This document shows positions 48 through 15,924 of a DNA stretch of 16,333 bases, piece by piece. Under the pieces are notes generated by a model. It was not told where the DNA came from and made no database searches. It worked only from the letters and a program-made list of their open reading frames with translations. Position 1 is the first letter of the stretch; each line of letters starts with the position of its first letter. Location of the stretch: positions 1-16,333 of the forward strand of contig CAYLZE010000112.1 in the NCBI GenBank assembly GCA_964388035.1, read 5' to 3'. Source of the stretch: an uncultured archaeon (lineage in GTDB: Archaea > Asgardarchaeota > Lokiarchaeia > Sigyniarchaeales > SOKP01). Position numbers and translations under genes: made by a program.

Positions 48-1268
48 TTATCCCCATATTGCAATCGCTTTTGCTAGTTCATTATGGGTTTTTGCATACT
101 CTTTCAGAGAGATACCTTCATTGGTAGCATTTATTGCTTGCACAATGGCTTTAGCTCCTGCTTTTGTCCCATTTGGATGACCGTGGCATCCTCCTCCAAA
201 TTGAAAGACCATGTCTTTGCCCAAAATATTGATTAAATCCGGAATATTTGAGGGGCTTAATCCTCCAGAAGCTACAGGCAAGATGGGTTTAATCTTACCC
301 CATTCTTGATCGAGCATGGTGAGATTATCTCCCTTAATGTTTCGTTGGGAAATGCTTCTATTAATTTCCAACACTTCTTTTTTCCCACCTTCCATTTTGC
401 CCACCACAGTACCCGTATGCAATTGGTCCATGCCTAAGAGGCGCATGATCTTAGCCAGAGTTAGCATGCTTAACCCGTGTTTTTTATTCCGGGTTAAAGC
501 AGCATGCATGGCTCTATGGGCATGAATGACCACGTTTTTATCATCCAAGTAATCGCGCAACTCCTGTAAAGCTGAAAATCCGACGGTAAGAAAGTCCACC
601 ATGACATATTCTCCTCCATTATTGATGACAAAATCGGCTCTTTTTATCATGGTACTCATTTTAGCGGTAATATTTGGCATGTAAATCTTTTTCTCTCCCG
701 TCAAGTTTTCAATTTTGGCCCTCATATTTAGAGTTTCGATTATCCTGGGTTCAAAATTATTAAAACTCATGCTCGTAAGGTTTTCATCATCTTTGACAAG
801 ATCCAATCCCCCCTCCCACGCTTCTCCACATACGCGCGCGTGTTCCTTCTCGTTTAGTCCTACCTTGGGCTTTACAATGGTACCGAGAAGGGGTCTTTCA
901 TAAACATTTAGAATTTTTCTAATTCCTTCGATGCCAAATTTTGGTCCTTTATATGCATCCCTAATAACATCGGGGAATCGTACATCTAACAACCTCAAAT
1001 TATTCAATGCTTTCATGCCGAAAATATTTCCGGCGATTGCACTCAATATTTGGGACATGTTTTCGGCTTCAAAAAGTTCGTGCGTATATGCAATTTTAAT
1101 TATATTTTTTTCATGATCGATAGAAAAGACAGAAGGTTTTAATTTCTTAGCAATATCCGGAGACATGGTAGATAAATCCGTCCATGTTCCTATGGAACTT
1201 TCTTTCGCGATTTCCATGCAAGCAGTTTCCAAATTTTCACAAGATGGTGCTTTTTCCAAATAATACAT
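48..1268 (-). CDS. rbcL: Ribulose-1,5-bisphosphate carboxylase/oxygenase large subunit, archaeal form III type
   Basis: The 406-aa ORF carries the RuBisCO catalytic motifs GTIVKPKVGL, GGLDLVKDDENLTS (carbamylated Lys plus the D/E metal ligands), HAHRAMHAA, LHTGT..GKMEGG, ASGGL and FGGGCHGHPNG. It is collinear from memory with Thermococcus-type form III RbcL. The in-frame region upstream of the ATG (to 1328) still encodes the conserved N-terminus, so the true start may lie upstream (see findings). Confidence 0.9.
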   Translation of the reverse strand: MYYLEKAPSCENLETACMEIAKESSIGTWTDLSTMSPDIAKKLKPSVFSIDHEKNIIKIAYTHELFEAENMSQILSAIAGNIFGMKALNNLRLLDVRFPDVIRDAYKGPKFGIEGIRKILNVYERPLLGTIVKPKVGLNEKEHARVCGEAWEGGLDLVKDDENLTSMSFNNFEPRIIETLNMRAKIENLTGEKKIYMPNITAKMSTMIKRADFVINNGGEYVMVDFLTVGFSALQELRDYLDDKNVVIHAHRAMHAALTRNKKHGLSMLTLAKIMRLLGMDQLHTGTVVGKMEGGKKEVLEINRSISQRNIKGDNLTMLDQEWGKIKPILPVASGGLSPSNIPDLINILGKDMVFQFGGGCHGHPNGTKAGAKAIVQAINATNEGISLKEYAKTHNELAKAIAIWG

Positions 1269-7200: not shown

Positions 7201-8748
7201 TTAACTTTTCTGTTCATTCTGTTCTATACCATATCCAATTAAGCGATATCTTTGATTAATTATTCTGGAAATGGCATATATGAAATTCTCCGGGGGACAA
7301 ATAGGAGGATTCAATTTTATCACGTAAGAATCTTTAAGAATTTTAGTCACGATACCTCCGGTCTTTTCAGTGCCTACCACTAGTAGGAGTCTTTCATTAT
7401 GCTTGAGGGGTTGAACCTTTATCTGTAACTCGGAACCAATCACTCTCTGGAATAATTTTACCTTCAGTTTCACCTCATCTTTAATTTCTGGCAAGCTGTC
7501 GATTTTTCCCACCAAATTTCCACTCAATGAATCTCCTTTTGTTAAGGAAGGATCTAATTTCGTTCCAATTCCTATTAATCCGCCTGGTTTAGCTAATTCC
7601 AATAGATTTTTTCCTTGACTAATGCTCGTCACGACGGTTTTTATCGATTCATACTTCTCCTTTATCCGCAAACCGGGTCGAATTTCTATTTCCTCTCCCA
7701 CTGACACCGTGCCTTTTAAAACAGATCCCCCCACTACGCCTCCTTTTAAATTATCAATAGATGTTCCGGGGCGATTTATATCAAAGGATCGTGCTACTAA
7801 AAATTGAAACTCCTCATTTTCGTCTAATTCGGGGGTAGGAATCACTTCTTCAAAAGCTCGTACTACTAATTCAATATTTGCACCAAAAACTGCAGATACA
7901 GGAATGATGGGGGCATTTTCTGCGACAGTTCCCTTGACAAATTCTTTAATTTGATCACGATTCTTTAATGCTTGTTCCTTTGATACAGCATCAATTTTAT
8001 TTTGAATAATAATAATTTTATCAATATTTGCAATGTTGAGGGCTGCTAAATGTTCTCTGGTCTGAGGTTGGGGGCAATCTTCATCTGCAGCAATTAATAA
8101 ACAAGCTCCATCCATTAAAGAGGCTCCGCTTAACATGGTAGCCATTAATATCTCATGTCCAGGAGAATCTACAAAAGAAATATTCCTTCTAAATTCTAAC
8201 TCCTTTCCACATTTAGGACAATTATATCGGGGTTGTCCTTTTTCTCTATCTTTTTCCACCATATAATCCGTGAGATAGAGATCACAAGTAGGACAATATA
8301 GAATGGTAGAATTGGAATACCCTAATTTGATTGAGATCCCACGTTCTTGTTCTTCCGAATGTCTATCCGTCCAATCTCCCGTCAATGCTTTAACTAAGGT
8401 TGTTTTTCCATGATCTACATGTCCAACAAGACCTATATTACATTCCGCCTGAATCTTCATTAACTCCTTGATATTTGATGACGATTTTTTCTTTTTGGGC
8501 TCTTGTTCAGCGGTTTTTTCTGTTTTCTCTTCCGATTTTTTTACTGCTGGATAAGCCTCTATTTCTTTCATGTAAGCTTTTGCATTCTCAATATATTTTG
8601 ATGCACTAGATTCTCCAATTCCTTTTATTTTTAAAAGGTCCTCGAGCTCCACTGAAGCTAAATCTTCAATAGTTTTAATTCCCGCCCCTTTCAAAATCTG
8701 TGCTGTTTTCTTTCCGATACCGCTTAATTCTTCTAATCCGTTTACCAT
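7201..8748 (-). CDS. eif2g: Translation initiation factor aIF2 gamma subunit with an N-terminal (HhH)2 extension
   Basis: 515 aa. The G domain shows NIGLVGHVDHGKTTL, SFVDSPGHE and IIQNKID. The aIF2-gamma zinc knuckle is CPTCD...CPKCG, followed by domains II and III. Residues 1-60 form two helix-hairpin-helix repeats (LSGIGKKTAQILKGAGIKTIEDL / LLKIKGIGESSASKYIENAKA). A Lys/Glu-rich linker then runs to about residue 96. Confidence 0.9.
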   Translation of the reverse strand: MVNGLEELSGIGKKTAQILKGAGIKTIEDLASVELEDLLKIKGIGESSASKYIENAKAYMKEIEAYPAVKKSEEKTEKTAEQEPKKKKSSSNIKELMKIQAECNIGLVGHVDHGKTTLVKALTGDWTDRHSEEQERGISIKLGYSNSTILYCPTCDLYLTDYMVEKDREKGQPRYNCPKCGKELEFRRNISFVDSPGHEILMATMLSGASLMDGACLLIAADEDCPQPQTREHLAALNIANIDKIIIIQNKIDAVSKEQALKNRDQIKEFVKGTVAENAPIIPVSAVFGANIELVVRAFEEVIPTPELDENEEFQFLVARSFDINRPGTSIDNLKGGVVGGSVLKGTVSVGEEIEIRPGLRIKEKYESIKTVVTSISQGKNLLELAKPGGLIGIGTKLDPSLTKGDSLSGNLVGKIDSLPEIKDEVKLKVKLFQRVIGSELQIKVQPLKHNERLLLVVGTEKTGGIVTKILKDSYVIKLNPPICPPENFIYAISRIINQRYRLIGYGIEQNEQKS

Positions 8749-9366: not shown

Positions 9367-11535
9367 ATGGTCAGCACTCATCATAAAAAGACTGCTATTC
9401 TCATCATTATTTTTATAATTTTGACAAACCTTTTGATATTTCGCTTTTTCAACGTAAATAAAAATCCAGTAATAATATCAAATCCCAATCAGAAGATTGC
9501 GACTTCGAATGGTAACGACGACCTATCCATCAATATCGATGCTAACATCTTACCTAAAATAAATTATAGTCAGATAAATGATTCATGGAAAACTAATAAG
9601 ATTGACATGTTAATTGTCAGTCCCAATCGACAAGATTTCGTAAATGCACTCAAGCCTTTAATGGAATGGAATAATCAAAAAGGAGTCAAGACCGTTATCT
9701 TGAGTAATTTTTCCTCTTATGAGGGAAACGATAAAGCGGAAAAAATCAGGAACATGATCAAGTCCTATTATGAAAAGCATGATATACAATGGGTACTGCT
9801 TGCAGGAGATGCTGAAAATAATCTAATTCCCATCAGGTATGTATATAATCCTGATACAGTAATAGTGGGACAAGGAGAAAGCGAATATGGAGATTGGAGC
9901 GATTATTATAAACCCACGGATTTTTATTATGCTGATTTAAATGGTACCTGGGATGATAATCACAATGGCATATATGGAGAGTCTTCCGTCTATACAGGAG
10001 GATCTGATGAGATTGATTGGACTCCGGAAGTATACGTTGGTCGATTTCCCGCCAGTAACGCGAATGAATTGGAAATAATGGTGAATAAAACCCTGCAATA
10101 TGAGATGAATCCCTACGTGGGAGATTGGATGAATCAAATGCTATTAGCAGGGGGCGTGTCCTCTTTAAATCCCTTAGAAGATGAAGCCAAATTAACCAAT
10201 TACATTTGGAATGAATATCTACTCTCTGAAATGAATTTTACTAACCTTTATCGAACCGCTTCTCCCTATGATCCCCCCACTCCTCCCGCTCCTAATGAGC
10301 AGGGTGGCTTAACGAGTAATAGTTTTGAGAGTCAATTAAACTTAGGTTATTCTACCGTATTCATTGCGGGACACGGACAGCCCACGAAATTCAATGATTA
10401 TTACGGAACTATTTTTCTTAGCTCCGATTCCGTCTCTAATTATAACATGCCTTCCTTAATTTATTCTGATGCCTGCTCAACAGCATCTTATGACAAAACG
10501 GATAATAATTTAGGAGAAACACTAATTAACAGCACGGACTCTGGAGCCATAGGATTTATAGGCGCTTTACGCTTAACTTGGTATTTTGAAAATGATCCCT
10601 CCTTTGAAATGTTAAATCGTGCGAATGCTAAGTTGTTTTGGGAAGAATTTTTTCTTAACGAGGAATATCAACCTGGAAAAGCGTTATATGATTCAAAAGT
10701 CGCTTACATGAATAGCAGTTACTTCACGGGAGGAAGTGCTTCCATGGACGAAGAATGGGAACGAAAAAATGTGTTAACTTATTGTTTATTGGGAGACCCC
10801 GAAATTGATATTTATACAAACATCCCCGTTAGCGTAAAAAATGCCTTTAAAGGAACTTTTTATGAATGCGAGCATGTATCGTTAACGATTAAAAATGCTT
10901 ATGATGAGGCAGTAGCCAATGCTAGAGTGCATATCTATACATCTAATGGCAAATACTCTCAAACAATCTATTCTGATTCTAATGGTAATATAGAATTCAA
11001 CTTGCCTGAAGGAAGGAGATTATACAATGTAACCATTACGGGACATGACCTCCTCGCCTCAAACTTTAATTTTCGCACCACTTCCGATAGCATTGCTCCT
11101 ACCTGTGAAAATTTAACAATCACCCCGAAAAATCCGACAGTCTCCGAAAATTTAACACTAGGCGTTCTTGCTAAGGATCCCCAAACAGGCATAGAAAGTC
11201 TTCATTTATTATTATCAAATGATAATTTCGCGACATATTCAATGCAAGAACTTCAATACACTCCACTTACTTCGAAAAACTATTATACATGTAATATAAG
11301 TAAATTAAAACCGGGCGAATATTCTGTTTTAATCCTCGCAAGGGATTATGCGAATAACACTGAATTATTTTATAATCAAAGCATCATGATACAGATTCCG
11401 ACACCTATCATTGATTATGTCCTTAATTTTGCGTTGTTTTCCTTGTTTGGAATAATGGGGGTAGTATTTTACTTCACATATTTTCAAATTAAAAGTTTTA
11501 AGAAGAAGGAAGAAATCTTTAAAGTTTTAACTTAA
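9367..11535 (+). CDS. Peptidase family C25 (gingipain-like, clan CD) surface protease, membrane-anchored
   Basis: 722 aa with an N-terminal TM anchor. C25-type blocks are present: VLLAGDAENNLIPIRY, YYADLNGTWDDNHNGIYGE, VYVGRFPASNANELEIMVNKTLQYE. A catalytic His/Cys dyad context is seen in VFIAGHGQP and LIYSDACSTASYD. A CarboxypepD_reg-like segment (ARVHIYTSNGKYSQTIYSDSNGNIEFNLPEG) follows, with many N-x-S/T sequons and a C-terminal TM helix. Confidence 0.75.
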   Translation: MVSTHHKKTAILIIIFIILTNLLIFRFFNVNKNPVIISNPNQKIATSNGNDDLSINIDANILPKINYSQINDSWKTNKIDMLIVSPNRQDFVNALKPLMEWNNQKGVKTVILSNFSSYEGNDKAEKIRNMIKSYYEKHDIQWVLLAGDAENNLIPIRYVYNPDTVIVGQGESEYGDWSDYYKPTDFYYADLNGTWDDNHNGIYGESSVYTGGSDEIDWTPEVYVGRFPASNANELEIMVNKTLQYEMNPYVGDWMNQMLLAGGVSSLNPLEDEAKLTNYIWNEYLLSEMNFTNLYRTASPYDPPTPPAPNEQGGLTSNSFESQLNLGYSTVFIAGHGQPTKFNDYYGTIFLSSDSVSNYNMPSLIYSDACSTASYDKTDNNLGETLINSTDSGAIGFIGALRLTWYFENDPSFEMLNRANAKLFWEEFFLNEEYQPGKALYDSKVAYMNSSYFTGGSASMDEEWERKNVLTYCLLGDPEIDIYTNIPVSVKNAFKGTFYECEHVSLTIKNAYDEAVANARVHIYTSNGKYSQTIYSDSNGNIEFNLPEGRRLYNVTITGHDLLASNFNFRTTSDSIAPTCENLTITPKNPTVSENLTLGVLAKDPQTGIESLHLLLSNDNFATYSMQELQYTPLTSKNYYTCNISKLKPGEYSVLILARDYANNTELFYNQSIMIQIPTPIIDYVLNFALFSLFGIMGVVFYFTYFQIKSFKKKEEIFKVLT

Positions 11536-11610
11536 TTTAACCTTTTTCTTTCTACTTGCCCTCAAAACCCTTTAATACAAGAATTTCATAAAATTTAATT
11601 AGAATATTTC

Positions 11611-11622
11611 CTTTTTTATTAT
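11611..11622 (+). promoter_or_regulatory. TATA-like element (CTTTTTTATTAT), candidate promoter for the permuted 5S transcript
   Basis: This is an AT-rich box upstream of the 5S island. Archaeal TSSs lie about 25 nt downstream of TATA, giving a start near 11640-11650, upstream of the BHB leader strand. A second candidate (ATAAAATTTA, about 11588-11597) would also include the outer helix strand 11631-11639. Confidence 0.25.
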
Positions 11623-11653
11623 CACTAAATACCACACATGTATGCATTTCGCA

Positions 11654-11665
11654 CCCATCTGGAAG
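11654..11665 (+). other. 5' (leader) strand of a bulge-helix-bulge-like processing motif: CCCAU (outer helix), CUGG (central helix), AAG (3-nt bulge)
   Basis: 11654-11658 pairs with 11787-11791, and 11659-11662 pairs with 11780-11783. 11663-11665 is left unpaired. See findings. Confidence 0.55.
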
Positions 11666-11785
11666 TTAAACTTTCTCACGTTAATTTAAGTAGTGTGATT
11701 GCGATTCATGCGAACAATTAAACTGTAAAGTTATTTACGGTCATGGTGAAAAAGGATAATACCTGGTCCCATTCCGAACCCAGAA
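11665..11785 (+). rRNA. rrf: 5S rRNA, circularly permuted gene order. 11665-11729 encodes the canonical 3' part, 11730-11733 is a GUUA cap, and 11734-11785 encodes the canonical 5' part.
   Basis: Helix I: 11734-11741 UUUACGGU / 11722-11729 ACUGUAAA (8 bp, 1 GU). Helix II: 11746-11754 GUGAAAAAG / 11671-11679 CUUUCUCAC (8 of 9 bp). Helix III: 11763-11766 CUGG / 11780-11783 CCAG, enclosing the 13-nt loop C UCCCAUUCCGAAC. Helix V: 11681-11686 UUAAUU / 11716-11721 AAUUAA. Loop E: AGUA (11689-11692) opposite GAA (11712-11714). Helix IV: 11693-11698 GUGUGA / 11706-11711 UCAUGC. The rotated sequence reads ...CAUUCCGAACCCAGAA-GUUAAAC..GUAGUGUG...CAUGCGAAC..., matching conserved 5S blocks. The rotated length is 121 nt. 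Confidence 0.8.
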
Positions 11786-11791
11786 CGTGGG
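11780..11791 (+). other. 3' (trailer) strand of the bulge-helix-bulge-like motif: CCAG (central helix), AAC (3-nt bulge), GUGGG (outer helix)
   Basis: This is the complement of the leader strand 11654-11662. The 3-nt bulge 11784-11786 lies 3' of the 4-bp central helix, mirroring the bulge at 11663-11665. Confidence 0.55.
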
Positions 11792-11799
11792 GTGTGTGG

Positions 11800-11804
11800 T
11801 TTTT
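11800..11804 (+). terminator. Oligo-T tract (T5) ending the 5S transcription unit
   Basis: GGTTTTTG lies immediately after the trailer helix. A second T-rich tract follows at about 11821-11834. Confidence 0.4.
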
Positions 11805-11929
11805 GAAAAAATTTAAGCTTGCTTTTCTTTTTTTAAATTCTATTGAATCCTTCCAACCTCTAAAATAACTTTTTAAGCAGTCCATAATACATTTCATTAG
11901 GACTATATAATAGGAACTGAAGAATTCAA

Positions 11930-12436
11930 ATGCCAAATAAGATAATTGTCGTCCTCAAGTCAATCGGGAGATATTGGTTTACGCTTTTAATCATAACTAT
12001 TATTATTGTAGCGTTCTATAACCAACAAGCAGCAATCATCATTGCAATTATCACATTAGTGCTTTATATAATCTCTTACATTCCTTTTCTTGTTTTTAGG
12101 AGTCGTCTCTTAAGAAATTTGAAGAAATTTAATCGAGTTGATGATGCCACTATTGCTAAAAAAATGGGCAAAGATCTTAAATCTATTAAAAATAAGTTAT
12201 TTTCCTTATCTCAACATCAAGAGAAAAAGAAATGGTTGGTTATTTTTACCAATAAAACCTACATTTTTTATGCTCCTAAAACCATTAGTGAGTATAAAAA
12301 ACTTTATGAGAAAAAAAAAGAAGAAACTCAAATTTTAGAGGAATTAAAAAAATTCGATATCAATTCCAAGGAAGAAATTAAGAACATTAAAGAAGCGCTA
12401 TTAAAATTTAGAAGAATATCTCCTATCTCGGAATAA
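11930..12436 (+). CDS. Hypothetical membrane protein (two N-terminal TM helices, Lys-rich cytoplasmic tail)
   Basis: 168 aa. Hydrophobic segments are WFTLLIITIIIVAFY and AAIIIAIITLVLYIISYIPFLVF, followed by a charged C-terminal half. No family was recognised. Confidence 0.5.
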   Translation: MPNKIIVVLKSIGRYWFTLLIITIIIVAFYNQQAAIIIAIITLVLYIISYIPFLVFRSRLLRNLKKFNRVDDATIAKKMGKDLKSIKNKLFSLSQHQEKKKWLVIFTNKTYIFYAPKTISEYKKLYEKKKEETQILEELKKFDINSKEEIKNIKEALLKFRRISPISE

Positions 12437-14938: not shown

Positions 14939-15406
14939 TTATGAGAGTTCTACTTGCAAAAACTTTTTTGATCGCAAAAAAATTAAATTGACTTTTATTT
15001 TTCGTGCTTCCCGCCTTAAATTTTTATCATTACTGGCAAGAAACACTCGAAAGGAGGCATTATTCAATTCTTTTAGTTTTCTAATCAAAAATTCATCCGT
15101 AGTTTCATCAAGATTCTTTCTCTCATTAACGATTTGTAAATCATAGCTTGACTGCATTTTCTCCAAATATCTCAATCCTGCTTCATATTGCAACTGGAAT
15201 TTTTGCTTTTCTTCGTTTCTTGCTTTTTTAGCATTCAATTCATCTAATGACTGCTGATATATCATGAAATTAGTGCTTCCCTCCAAAAGGTAAGTAATTT
15301 CCTCAAAATAATTAATCTTATATTGAAAAGGAAGTAAAATAAAATTTGAGTCAATAACCACTTTGTTGACTTGTTTTCTTTCCATATTCTCTGTCGTTGA
15401 TTTCAA
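14939..15406 (-). CDS. PIN-domain nuclease, Fcf1/Utp24-like (COG1412-type)
   Basis: 155 aa from a TTG start that overlaps the upstream stop as TTGA. An ATG at 15385 would give 148 aa. Acidic PIN residues occur in VVIDSNFILLP, DELNAK, ETTDEFL and FLASNDKNLRREARK, the last resembling the Fcf1 (A/T)TQDxxLKRR block. Confidence 0.6.
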   Translation of the reverse strand: MKSTTENMERKQVNKVVIDSNFILLPFQYKINYFEEITYLLEGSTNFMIYQQSLDELNAKKARNEEKQKFQLQYEAGLRYLEKMQSSYDLQIVNERKNLDETTDEFLIRKLKELNNASFRVFLASNDKNLRREARKIKVNLIFLRSKKFLQVELS

Positions 15407-15924
15407 GGGGGTAAACGCTCTAATATTCTTCCCGTCAATCTTGAGAAGGTTTCCTTAACATTCTCTCCCGTTTTGGAAGAAACTTTAACAAAATCAAAGA
15501 AATTAAATTGTTCTAAAAAGGAAAGCGCATAATCATCTTGAACCATGATATCATCCATTAAATCCAGCTTAGTTCCTACAAATAATATCGGAAGCGTGGG
15601 ATCATGTTTGCGGACTATGGTCACCCACTGCTCTAAGTTATCCAGGGTCATCGGGCGGGTGAGATCGAACATCAGCAATGCACCCTTGGCCCCCAGGACG
15701 TAACTCTCCAATAGAAATCGGAACCGCTCCTGTCCCCCGAAATCCCATAGCTGCAAAGTACAACTTGCGCCATCAATCTCTACTTCTTGGAGGAAAAACT
15801 CGACTCCTATCGTCATTTTGGTATCCGCAGTAAAGTTCCCTTCCACGTAACGATGTAGCAGCGTGGTCTTGCCCACTCCCCCTTCTCCCGCTGTTAATAT
15901 CTTTAAAATGAATTTCTTTGGCAT
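15403..15924 (-). CDS. Ras-superfamily small GTPase (Rab/Ras-like)
   Basis: 173 aa. G1 is GEGGVGKTT, switch I is TIGVEF, G3 is WDFGGQERF, G4 is VGTKLD (Thr replaces the canonical Asn of NKxD) and G5 is SSKTG. There is no C-terminal CAAX/CC prenylation motif. An SD-like GGAGTGA lies 12 nt upstream of the ATG. Confidence 0.85.
   Translation of the reverse strand: MPKKFILKILTAGEGGVGKTTLLHRYVEGNFTADTKMTIGVEFFLQEVEIDGASCTLQLWDFGGQERFRFLLESYVLGAKGALLMFDLTRPMTLDNLEQWVTIVRKHDPTLPILFVGTKLDLMDDIMVQDDYALSFLEQFNFFDFVKVSSKTGENVKETFSRLTGRILERLPP

What the first reader, a model, noticed from the sequence alone, without database searches (positions are those of the whole stretch)
11654..11791. Leader and trailer form a bulge-helix-bulge-like motif whose predicted cuts rebuild the conserved 5S junction
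Leader 11654-11662 (CCCAU-CUGG) pairs with 11780-11791 (CCAG-aac-GUGGG). This gives a 5-bp outer helix (one GU), a 4-bp central helix and two 3-nt bulges on opposite strands (AAG 11663-11665 and AAC 11784-11786). Each bulge lies 3' of the central-helix strand, which is the geometry recognised by the archaeal splicing endonuclease EndA. EndA cuts between bulge nucleotides 2 and 3. That releases G11665...A11785, and ligation by an RtcB-type ligase would join ...GAACCCAGAA to GUUAAAC... This recreates the conserved 5S sequence (compare archaeal GAACCCGGAAGUUAAGC and E. coli GAACUCAGAAGUGAAAC). After joining, C11762-G11665 and A11761-U11666 can extend helix III across an AA bulge, as in canonical 5S. 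The leader CUGG copies the native helix III strand (11763-11766), so the precursor and mature folds are mutually exclusive. One caveat is that I cannot find an inner helix h' (11666 onward versus up to 11779), so this is a relaxed hBHB form.
Basis: partly seen in the sequence, partly recalled or inferred. Interest (0 to 1): 0.9.

Follow-up and report, generated by a model that had tools for sequence, protein, structure and literature searches.

The report
Circularly permuted 5S rRNA gene in Asgard archaea
In this Asgard archaeon and at least 20 related genomes, the only 5S ribosomal RNA gene found at this locus is written back to front, and conserved flanking helices form the cutting signal of the tRNA-splicing enzyme, so a normal 5S sequence can only be rebuilt by cutting and joining the ends, probably giving a circular 5S rRNA.

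Summary

- **The gene is permuted.** Window 11665-11785 is a 5S rRNA gene in permuted order. Rfam model positions 52-120 come first, then a 4-nt cap closing helix I, then positions 1-51.
- **Flanks.** The leader and trailer form a 9-bp outer stem, a 5-bp helix h and a 4-bp helix H. A 3-nt bulge sits on each strand.
- **Predicted cuts.** Cuts after the second nucleotide of each bulge (11664|11665 and 11785|11786) rebuild the canonical sequence ...GAACCCAGAA-GUUAAAC...
- **Relatives.** The same architecture occurs in 20 syntenic loci from Asgard (Promethearchaeota/Lokiarchaeia) genomes and metagenomes. Helix h has four unrelated sequence classes that all pair: 95% of cells are paired and 0 of 500 shuffles match this.
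- **Second breakpoint.** One relative (L136) has the breakpoint 18-19 nt away, inside loop C. Its own motif again predicts cuts that rebuild the same 5S.
- **The rejoined RNA is a 5S.** Rejoined sequences fold as canonical 5S, with compensatory changes at 18 of 32 pairs.
- **Annotation.** Rfam at its gathering score finds none of these genes.
- **Caveats.** There are no RNA data, no inner helix h' (a relaxed motif), and in the window itself the motif is not the minimum-energy fold.
- **Closest precedent.** The permuted SRP RNA of Thermoproteus.
- **Prior reports.** I found no report of a permuted archaeal 5S gene.

The parts
11590..11602 (+). Promoter-like element AAAAUUUAAUUAG (archaeal BRE/TATA-like), 29 nt upstream of the outer stem
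   Evidence: The motif AAA[AG]TTTAAT[TA]A is conserved upstream of the unit in relatives. Its role as a promoter is inferred, not tested.
11631..11639 (+). Outer processing stem, 5' strand ACCACACAU
   Evidence: Pairs with 11792-11800 over 9 bp and is present in the minimum-energy fold. Every relative has an 8-15 bp outer stem, with compensatory changes such as ACCGCA/UGCGGU and GCCACA/UGUGGC.
11640..11653 (+). Leader insert GUAUGCAUUUCGCA, a weak hairpin UGC-AUUUC-GCA
   Evidence: The nearest relative L133 has UUGCAUUUCGCAA. Other relatives have a GUAGCG...CGCUAC hairpin here. Function unknown.
11654..11658 (+). BHB outer helix h, 5' strand CCCAU
   Evidence: Pairs with 11787-11791. All 5 pairs show changes on both sides across relatives.
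11659..11662 (+). BHB central helix H, leader strand CUGG, which mimics the helix III 5' strand
   Evidence: Pairs with 11780-11783. 100% of cells pair in 18 sequences. The second position covaries U-A (7 sequences) or C-G (11 sequences).
11663..11665 (+). 5' bulge/loop AAG; predicted cut 11664|11665
   Evidence: AAG is invariant in all loci of the window type. G11665 corresponds to Rfam 5S model position 52.
11665..11729 (+). 5S rRNA 3' part (Rfam model positions ~52-120: helix II 3' strand, helices V/IV, helix I 3' strand)
   Evidence: Rfam alignment. Fold and covariation after rejoining.
11730..11733 (+). Tetraloop GUUA capping helix I where a normal 5S has its two ends
   Evidence: The cap is exactly 4 nt in all 19 sequences listed: GUUA, GUCA, UUCG (8 times), UACG, CUCG, CUUG, UUUG, UUAG.
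11734..11785 (+). 5S rRNA 5' part (helix I 5' strand, helix II 5' strand, helix III, loop C), ending ...CCGAACCCAGAA
   Evidence: Rfam 5S model positions 27-51 match 11761-11785 with 21.9 bits and E = 0.037. Covariation.
11780..11783 (+). BHB central helix H, 3' strand CCAG; the same nucleotides form the helix III 3' strand in the mature RNA
   Evidence: The two pairings exclude each other.
11784..11786 (+). 3' bulge AAC; predicted cut 11785|11786
   Evidence: A 3-nt bulge AA[A/C/U] is present in all relatives. A11785 corresponds to model position 51.
11787..11791 (+). BHB outer helix h, 3' strand GUGGG
11792..11800 (+). Outer processing stem, 3' strand GUGUGUGGU
11800..11804 (+). U5 run directly after the outer stem, a likely archaeal terminator
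   Evidence: Read directly from the sequence. T-rich runs follow the stem in several relatives. Its role is inferred.

Best explanation
**What it is.** This is the 5S rRNA gene of an Asgard archaeon (Promethearchaeota, Lokiarchaeia-like), encoded in circularly permuted order. The 3' two-thirds come first (11665-11729). A tetraloop then closes helix I (11730-33). The 5' part follows (11734-11785).

**How it most likely works.**
1. A transcript of about 175 nt (about 11625-11804) folds so that leader and trailer form a long outer stem plus a relaxed bulge-helix-bulge motif. Helix h is 11654-58 with 11787-91. Helix H is leader CUGG with the helix III strand CCAG.
2. The tRNA-splicing endonuclease EndA cuts at 11664|11665 and 11785|11786.
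3. An RtcB-type ligase joins A11785 to G11665, giving a 121-nt RNA with the canonical ...CCGAACCCAGAA-GUUAAAC... sequence.
4. The leader mimic is released, so the native helix III can form.
5. Helix I is closed by a conserved 4-nt cap, so the product most likely stays a covalently closed circle in the ribosome.

**Shown:**
- the permuted order
- the 5S fold under selection
- covariation of h, H and the outer stem
- exact restoration of the consensus at two different breakpoints

**Inferred:**
- the promoter and terminator
- EndA cleavage
- ligation
- the circular end state
For: - **Permuted order.** Rfam 5S model positions 27-51 match 11761-11785, and positions 52-120 match 11664-11731 upstream. 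There is no collinear 5S and no tRNA in the 16.3 kb.
- **Fold after rejoining.** Rejoined sequences fold as the 5S three-way junction in single-sequence predictions for the window and several relatives. Consensus folds show compensatory changes at 15 of 33 pairs and 18 of 32 pairs.
- **Relatives.** Twenty related loci share the architecture. They also share gene order: C25 peptidase, permuted 5S, a 168-aa ORF, then a glyoxalase-family gene, with neighbouring proteins only 40-80% identical.
- **Covariation of h and H.** 98% of cells pair and 6 of 9 pairs change on both sides. In 18 sequences, 95.1% pair, 32 cells change on both sides, no shuffle of 500 reaches this, and slid controls give at most 46%.
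- **Chance in the window.** About 5e-5.
- **Energetics.** The motif conformer is the minimum-energy fold or within 1.1 kcal/mol of it in 11 of 16 sequences tested.
- **Second breakpoint.** L136 has its breakpoint in loop C. Its own h (AGCG/CGCU), H (CUGG/CCGG) and bulges (AAC, UCA) predict cuts giving GGUC|CCAUCCGAAC, a 120-nt 5S collinear with the rest.
- **Cap.** It is always 4 nt and mostly UNCG-like.
- **Lineage and enzyme.** Relatives are named Promethearchaeota, Lokiarchaeota or Promethearchaeia. Asgard EndA is reported as the (alpha-beta)2 type with the L1/CSL loop, the type that cleaves relaxed hBH substrates (PMC5829648).
- **Precedents.** The permuted SRP RNA of Thermoproteus is made circular by EndA and ligation (PMC4731332). 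A 5S whose native ends are joined by a tetraloop works in E. coli ribosomes (PMC7283268).
Against: - No transcript data exist here, so cleavage, ligation and circularity are all inferred.
- The motif lacks the inner helix h'. At best there are G65-C79, U66-A78 and U67-A77, which would shrink the 5' bulge to 2 nt. It is therefore a relaxed hBH or bulge-helix-loop form.
- In the window itself the motif conformer lies 4.5-4.8 kcal/mol above the minimum-energy fold, with pair probability below 1%.
- In L136, helix h is predicted with 0.80-0.92 probability, but the minimum-energy fold pairs CCGG with the native helix III strand instead of the leader.
- EndA and RtcB genes are not in the window and were not examined in these genomes.
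- A canonical 5S copy elsewhere in these genomes is not excluded.
- The second breakpoint rests on one locus.
Confidence: 0.8

Rival explanations
1. The RNA functions as a linear, permuted 5S. The leader and trailer are trimmed, by EndA or another nuclease, but the ends are never ligated. They are held together only by the 5S fold and ribosomal proteins. This is the situation in the permuted mitochondrial 5S of brown algae, where the final product is also permuted.
For: - The permuted mitochondrial 5S rRNAs stay permuted in the final product (PMC4267664).
- The rejoined fold holds the two ends next to each other whether or not they are ligated.
- No junction reads are available.
Against: - The flanks keep the exact EndA geometry: a 4-bp H, 3-nt bulges and a covarying h. 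EndA products carry a 2',3'-cyclic phosphate and a 5'-OH, which are the ends that RtcB joins (established knowledge).
- Excised BHB-bounded RNAs are circularised in the archaea studied so far, including the permuted SRP RNA (PMC4731332).
- In L136 the nick would fall inside the conserved loop C.
- Two different breakpoints giving one identical joined sequence suggests that selection acts on the joined product.
Confidence: 0.12
2. The RNA is circularised as proposed and then reopened at the helix I cap, so the mature product is a conventional linear 5S. This would follow the permuted tRNA pathway, in which the circle is only an intermediate.
For: - Permuted tRNAs mature through a circular intermediate that is reopened (PMC3978253; PMC4267664).
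- Circular 16S/23S precursors are reopened in the species studied so far (PMC12918454).
Against: - The cap is exactly 4 nt in all 19 sequences and mostly a UNCG-type stable tetraloop. That looks like a structural cap and not a spacer to be removed.
- No processing signal such as an RNase P or tRNase Z site exists for 5S.
- A tetraloop-capped helix I is compatible with function in E. coli (PMC7283268).
Confidence: 0.2
3. The locus is a decaying relic of a tandem 5S duplication, or an assembly artefact. The working 5S gene lies elsewhere in the genome.
For: - The leader looks like a degenerate copy of 5S sequence. Rfam aligns the L136 leader to model positions 1-34.
- The window is only 16.3 kb, so the rest of the genome is unseen.
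Against: - The unit was found in 21 loci from about nine named genome assemblies and several metagenome samples, always at the same position in the gene order.
- All 5S helices, including the capped helix I, show compensatory changes.
- The flanking helices covary.
- No canonical 5S is found at Rfam's gathering score in the window or in 142 kb of related contigs.
Confidence: 0.03

Closest known systems
Permuted SRP RNA gene of Thermoproteus tenax (Plagens et al. 2015, PMC4731332)
   Same: - It is an essential structured RNA gene encoded with its 3' part before its 5' part.
[quoted passage not shown]
- Ligation restores the functional sequence.
- The mature RNA is a stable circle.
- The canonical gene had been 'missing' from annotation.
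   Different: - Here the RNA is 5S rRNA, a ribosomal component.
- The lineage is Asgard, not Thermoproteales.
- Helix H is built from a leader mimic of one helix III strand.
- Two alternative breakpoints exist among relatives.
- There is no experimental evidence yet.
Circularly permuted tRNA genes (Cyanidioschyzon merolae; Thermofilum pendens)
   Same: - The 3' half lies upstream of the 5' half.
- Leader and trailer form a BHB.
- Cutting and ligation give a circle carrying the correct junction (PMC3978253; PMC4267664). The T. pendens case is from my own knowledge.
   Different: The tRNA circle is an intermediate. The linker between the mature ends varies in length and is removed by RNase P and tRNase Z. 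Here the linker is a fixed 4-nt tetraloop with no known processing signal.
BHB-dependent circular pre-16S/23S rRNA, circular mature 23S, and the permuted 23S of Pyrococcus
   Same: - Long processing stems carry a BHB motif.
- EndA cuts and the RNA is circularised.
- rRNA circles can be kept in ribosomes (PMC12918454; PMC7758197).
   Different: Those genes are collinear, and the circle junction lies in spacer or dispensable sequence. Here the gene itself is permuted and the junction lies inside conserved 5S sequence, so ligation is needed to make the canonical molecule. PMC12918454 states that 5S rRNAs are not known to follow this route.
Permuted mitochondrial 5S rRNA of brown algae (Rfam mtPerm-5S; Valach et al. 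2014, PMC4267664)
   Same: It is a 5S rRNA gene in permuted order that standard models miss.
   Different: It is organellar, it has no BHB, and the final RNA stays permuted and linear. No Rfam family other than 5S_rRNA gave a plausible match here.
Engineered circularly permuted 5S in E. coli (Huang et al. 2020, PMC7283268)
   Same: The native 5S ends are joined by a tetraloop and new ends are opened in loop C or D. The ribosomes are functional.
   Different: It is artificial, fused into 23S rRNA, and bacterial. There is no re-ligation.

Membership tests
5S rRNA (Rfam RF00001) | A contiguous match to the covariance model at or above the gathering score of 38 bits | tested here: not met
   There are no hits at the gathering score in the window or in 17 related loci. 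Only partial hits appear: 21.9 bits for model positions 27-51 and 12.8 bits for a match in which only positions ~52-120 align convincingly.
5S rRNA (Rfam RF00001) | A three-way junction with helices I-V and conserved loop C and junction sequences, once the two parts are joined in canonical order | tested here: met
   The minimum-energy fold of the rejoined window sequence is the 5S fold. Consensus folds show compensatory changes at 15 of 33 pairs and 18 of 32 pairs. The joined sequence CCGAACCCAGAA-GUUAAAC matches the model consensus.
Substrates of the archaeal splicing endonuclease (canonical hBHBh' motif) | A central helix H of exactly 4 bp | tested here: met
   CUGG/CCAG in the window. 100% of cells pair in 18 sequences, with a U-A to C-G covariation.
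Substrates of the archaeal splicing endonuclease (canonical hBHBh' motif) | Two 3-nt bulges on opposite strands, each 3' of its H strand | tested here: inconclusive
   The 3' strand bulge AA[A/C/U] is a true 3-nt bulge in every locus. The 5' strand AAG is unpaired in the correct place but opens into a loop and is not closed by a helix.
Substrates of the archaeal splicing endonuclease (canonical hBHBh' motif) | An outer helix h | tested here: met
   It is 3-5 bp long, occurs in four sequence classes, and all 5 pairs show changes on both sides.
Substrates of the archaeal splicing endonuclease (canonical hBHBh' motif) | An inner helix h' | tested here: not met
   No pairing exists between 11666 onward and the region up to 11779, apart from an invariant GUU/AAC that would shorten the bulge. 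L136 has none either. The motif is therefore the relaxed hBH or bulge-helix-loop class, which (alpha-beta)2 EndA with the CSL/L1 loop cleaves (PMC5829648).
Substrates of the archaeal splicing endonuclease (canonical hBHBh' motif) | Cleavage by EndA after bulge nucleotide 2 | not testable with these tools
   This needs an enzyme assay or RNA end mapping. Indirect support: only these cuts rebuild the consensus at two different breakpoints.
Permuted RNA genes matured by BHB cleavage and ligation (permuted tRNA, Thermoproteus SRP RNA) | The 3' part is encoded upstream of the 5' part, and the native ends are joined by a linker | tested here: met
Permuted RNA genes matured by BHB cleavage and ligation (permuted tRNA, Thermoproteus SRP RNA) | Leader and trailer form a BHB whose cut sites rebuild the canonical sequence | tested here: met
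   The second breakpoint in L136 gives the same result.
Permuted RNA genes matured by BHB cleavage and ligation (permuted tRNA, Thermoproteus SRP RNA) | A circular RNA or junction-spanning reads in vivo | not testable with these tools
   No transcript data could be searched.
Permuted RNA genes matured by BHB cleavage and ligation (permuted tRNA, Thermoproteus SRP RNA) | No collinear copy of the gene elsewhere in the genome | not tested
   Only the 16.3-kb window and about 142 kb of related contigs were scanned, and none held a collinear copy.
Permuted mitochondrial 5S (Rfam mtPerm-5S) | A match to the permuted mitochondrial model | tested here: not met
   The model did not appear among matches up to E = 10 in the window region or up to E = 1 in L128 and L136.

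The most novel reading that the evidence does not exclude
A whole clade of Asgard archaea (Lokiarchaeia/Promethearchaeia-like) may have no collinear 5S gene at all. Its ribosomes would then carry a covalently closed circular 5S rRNA of about 120 nt that can only be made by the tRNA-splicing endonuclease and RtcB. Large-subunit biogenesis in these close relatives of eukaryotes would depend on the splicing machinery. The breakpoint has also moved during evolution (window type versus L136 type), consistent with descent from a terminally redundant tandem duplication.
Probability: 0.5. Interest if true: 0.9.

Novelty: new member of a known kind. Interest (0 to 1): 0.8.

Why it matters
- **First of its kind, as far as I could find.** It would be the first rRNA gene in archaea that is permuted at the DNA level. 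It would also be the first case where an intact 5S rRNA sequence requires cutting and ligation by the tRNA-splicing machinery.
- **Lineage.** It occurs in Asgard archaea, the group used to infer the ancestry of eukaryotic RNA processing and ribosome biogenesis.
- **Testable prediction.** It predicts a circular 5S rRNA inside a ribosome. This can be checked in cultured Lokiarchaeia if they carry the locus, or in existing metatranscriptomes.
- **Annotation.** Rfam and Infernal at standard thresholds miss every one of these genes. Affected genomes will be scored as lacking 5S rRNA, which matters because 'high-quality MAG' standards require a 5S gene.
- **Evolution of permuted genes.** The two breakpoints offer a view of how such genes arise and drift.

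Tried and rejected
- **First genome contigs pattern.** AGTTAARY...YCCCATNCCGAAC was too loose.
- **Viral-contig scan.** It found nothing.
- **Exact-protein look-ups for window proteins.** They failed. The window's origin was inferred instead from the protein search: identical proteins from NCBI sit on a contig of 16,333 nt.
- **Search with the 168-aa neighbouring ORF.** It gave only one relative. The C25 peptidase worked better.
- **P0049.** This was the best chance of a second locus of the L136 type, but no DNA was returned. The second breakpoint therefore rests on one locus.
- **My first guess of DPANN/Nanobdellota**, based on AT-richness, was wrong. Ras-family GTPases, gene order and named relatives point to Asgard.
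- **Thermodynamic folding of the window precursor** does not predict the motif. I rely on comparative evidence, and on the relatives where the motif is at or near the minimum-energy fold.
- **An inner helix h'** was looked for and not found in either breakpoint type.
- **The idea that the leader hairpin GUAGCG...CGCUAC is a remnant of helix I** from an upstream copy fits some loci (L121, L138) but not the window. I keep it only as speculation.
- **The 27-29 nt insertion in loop C of L141** does not fit a BHB intron by inspection.
Full report
**What is in the window**

The window is AT-rich (about 33% G+C). It encodes archaeal proteins: aIF2-gamma, form III RuBisCO, CitG, a C25 peptidase and a Ras-family small GTPase.

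Rfam at its gathering score finds no RNA family, and ARAGORN finds no tRNA. A permissive Rfam scan of 11500-11950 gives two matches to 5S_rRNA in inverted order. Model positions 27-51 match 11761-11785 (21.9 bits, E = 0.037). A second, weak match (12.8 bits) spans 11614-11731, in which only model positions ~52-120 (from A11664 onward) align convincingly.

The locus is therefore a circularly permuted 5S gene. Its parts, with coordinates verified, are:
- the 3' part, 11665-11729;
- a GUUA tetraloop, 11730-33, closing helix I where a normal 5S has its two ends;
- the 5' part, 11734-11785.

**The observation**

- CCCAU (11654-58) pairs with GUGGG (11787-91).
- CUGG (11659-62) pairs with CCAG (11780-83).
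- AAC (11784-86) is a true 3-nt bulge.
- AAG (11663-65) is unpaired 3' of the leader H strand.

It is followed at once by U5.

Cutting after the second nucleotide of each bulge releases G11665...A11785, which is 121 nt. Joining its ends gives CCGAACCCAGAA-GUUAAAC. This falls exactly between Rfam model positions 51 and 52.

At this fixed register, with local base composition, the chance of a 4-bp H plus at least 4 bp of h is about 5e-5.

**Relatives**

| Source | Loci |
|---|---|
| Genome-collection pattern scan | L072; L099 (a 'Promethearchaeia archaeon' MAG) |
| Metagenome scan with a more specific pattern | 12 loci, L121-L132 |
| Contigs found through homologues of the neighbouring ORF and C25 peptidase | L133-L141 |

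All of these sit in the same gene order: C25 peptidase, permuted 5S, a 168-aa ORF, a glyoxalase-family gene, then cupin, PIN and Ras GTPase genes. The neighbouring proteins are only 40-80% identical. The arrangement is therefore old and inherited, and it is not an assembly artefact.

The peptidase homologues carry NCBI names such as Promethearchaeota, Candidatus Lokiarchaeota and other Asgard labels. Promethearchaeia is a class of the phylum Promethearchaeota. The window appears to be a complete NCBI contig of 16,333 nt, because identical proteins P0001 and P0003 sit on a contig of that length.

**Covariation of the flanking helices**

In the first alignment of 15 loci, 98% of cells pair and 6 of 9 pairs change on both sides.

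In the alignment of 18 distinct window-type precursors (A3), measured on the nine h and H pairs:

| Measure | Observed | Shuffled |
|---|---|---|
| Cells forming a standard pair | 95.1% | 72.8% |
| Cells with changes on both sides | 32 | 8.6 |
| Covariation score | 0.572 | 0.152 |

No shuffle of 500 reaches the observed values. Sliding the 3' partner by 1-3 columns gives at most 46% paired.

Helix h occurs in four unrelated sequence classes:
- CCCAU/GUGGG in the window;
- GCGU/ACGC in its nearest relatives, L133-L135;
- A[AG]CG/CG[CU]U in most others;
- CCGC/GCGG in L141.

The leader strand of H is CUGG when helix III is CUGG/CCAG, and CCGG when helix III is CCGG/CCGG. The leader is not part of the mature RNA, so this link is hard to explain except by leader-5S pairing.

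The outer stem is 8-15 bp in every locus and shows compensatory changes.

The motif conformer is the minimum-energy fold or within 1.1 kcal/mol of it in 11 of 16 sequences tested. These include the window's three closest relatives, at 0.2 kcal/mol. The window itself is an exception at 4.5 kcal/mol.

**A second breakpoint**

L136 (GCA_048886165.1) keeps the same leader elements: a hairpin, then AGCG, then CUGG. After that the sequence continues AA|C-CAUCCGAACCCGGCAGUUAAAC..., and the coding part ends ...AUACCCGGUC|A-CGCU.

Here H is formed by leader CUGG with the 5' strand of helix III (CCGG). Helix h is AGCG/CGCU, and the bulges are AAC and UCA.

Applying the same cutting rule joins GGUC to CCAUCCGAAC inside loop C. 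The result is a 120-nt RNA collinear with all the others.

Two different breakpoints that each obey the rule and give the same product are the strongest evidence available here for the cut positions, and for selection acting on the joined molecule. There is a caveat: in L136's minimum-energy fold, h is predicted (probability 0.80-0.92), but CCGG pairs with the native helix III strand instead of the leader.

A simple origin that fits both forms is a tandem duplication. It would leave the 16-18 nt segment CCAUCCGAACCCGGAA at both ends, and different lineages then lost one copy or the other. This is inference.

**The product is a real 5S**

Put into canonical order, the sequences fold into helix I, the helix II-III arm and the helix IV-V arm. 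RNAalifold finds compensatory changes at 15 of 33 pairs. With 13 sequences including L136, it finds them at 18 of 32 pairs.

The pairs that span the junction are A11759-U11666 and U11760-G11665.

The helix I cap is exactly 4 nt in all 19 sequences listed: UUCG eight times, plus UACG, CUCG, CUUG, UUUG, UUAG, GUUA and GUCA.

**Mechanism**

The motif has h, H and a proper 3' strand bulge, but it has no inner helix h'. It belongs to the relaxed hBH or bulge-helix-loop class.

According to PMC5829648, such substrates need (alpha-beta)2 or epsilon2 EndA with a specific loop, and Asgard archaea carry the (alpha-beta)2 type with the L1/CSL loop. The relaxed form is therefore compatible with the lineage.

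EndA leaves a 2',3'-cyclic phosphate and a 5'-OH, which are the ends that RtcB joins (established knowledge). BHB-bounded RNAs are circularised in archaea, including the permuted SRP RNA of Thermoproteus, whose mature form is a circle (PMC4731332).

H uses the CCAG strand that forms helix III in the mature RNA. The precursor and mature folds therefore exclude each other, and removing the leader frees helix III to form.

The fixed, stable tetraloop cap argues that the circle is the end product and not an intermediate. So does the finding that an E. coli 5S with its native ends joined by a tetraloop is functional (PMC7283268). This last step is the least certain.

**Comparison with what is known**

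- *Thermoproteus permuted SRP RNA.* This works the same way.
- *Permuted tRNA genes.* Same cut-and-join step, except that their circle is reopened.
- *Archaeal 16S/23S processing.* Both use a processing stem with a BHB. Those genes are collinear, however, and 5S is explicitly described as not following that route (PMC12918454).
- *Permuted mitochondrial 5S.* That RNA stays permuted and has no BHB (PMC4267664).

Nine full-text searches found no report of a permuted archaeal 5S gene or of a 5S made by circularisation. The library covers open-access PMC and bioRxiv only.

**Limits**

- There are no RNA data.
- EndA and RtcB were not examined in these genomes.
- A collinear 5S elsewhere in these genomes is not excluded, although none is present in the window or in 142 kb of related contigs.
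- Only one locus has the second breakpoint.
- The NCBI lineage labels of some MAGs (Hod-, Thor-, Hermod-) look unreliable. L138 ('Thorarchaeota') is nearly identical in this region to L140 ('Lokiarchaeota').

**Verdict**

It is a new member of a known kind: permuted RNA genes matured by the splicing endonuclease and a ligase. It is apparently unreported, and it is of high interest because it concerns rRNA, because it occurs in Asgard archaea, and because it is invisible to standard annotation.

Noticed in passing
L141 5440-5500 (GCA_019057795.1): The permuted 5S of this relative has a 27-29 nt insertion in loop C: GGUCACAUCCGAA[AAACAAUCUGCCGAACAGAUGGUUCGG]GAACCCAG. The insertion forms an extended hairpin whose tip shows a second CCGAA motif. 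The predicted circle is 151 nt instead of about 120. By inspection it does not look like a BHB intron.
   Followed up: partly
L136 6783-6880; L137 6236-6340; L138 4172-4275; L139 5160-5265; L140 5175-5280; L141 5199-5300: In these relatives, but not in the window, a conserved stem-loop of about 57 nt lies between the promoter-like AAAGTTTAATTA motif and the 5S leader. It consists of a 7-bp helix, a 3-nt bulge on the 3' strand, a second 7-bp helix, an internal loop and a hairpin. Nine of 22 pairs show compensatory changes. It may be a co-transcribed small RNA or an extra processing element. Its function is unknown.
   Followed up: partly
window 7201-8748 (-): The aIF2-gamma here is 515 aa and carries an N-terminal helix-hairpin-helix domain (HHH_5, residues 5-56) ahead of the GTPase domain. 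The fusion is present in most relatives but not in L137, where the protein is 417 aa.
   Followed up: no
window 11930-12436 (+): This 168-aa ORF has no significant Pfam match and a hydrophobic N-terminal region. It lies directly downstream of the permuted 5S in every related locus, at 40-64% identity. The linkage may only reflect conserved gene order.
   Followed up: partly
window 15403-15924 (-); paralogue pairs in L072, L122, L125, L127-L129, L133: Ras/Roc/Arf-like small GTPases, often in two copies 57-81% identical to the window protein, lie a few kb from the 5S. They are typical of Asgard genomes and helped to correct my first guess of DPANN.
   Followed up: partly
leaders of L121, L132, L138, L140, L136, L099, L126 (about 15-30 nt upstream of helix H): The leader hairpin GUAGCG-loop-CGCUAC has arms identical to the helix I arms (GCUAC/GUAGC) of the L121/L138-type 5S. 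Rfam also aligns the L136 leader to 5S model positions 1-34. The leader may be a decayed, internally deleted copy of an upstream 5S unit, which would fit a tandem-duplication origin.
   Followed up: partly
window 48-1268 (-): A form III-like RuBisCO large subunit gene lies at the edge of the contig.
   Followed up: no
L001-L120 (genome-contig scan): Many Clostridia and Selenomonadaceae genomes carry two 5S genes head to tail with almost no spacer. This is why the loose pattern matched them. Such arrays are the kind of starting material from which a permuted gene could arise.
   Followed up: no
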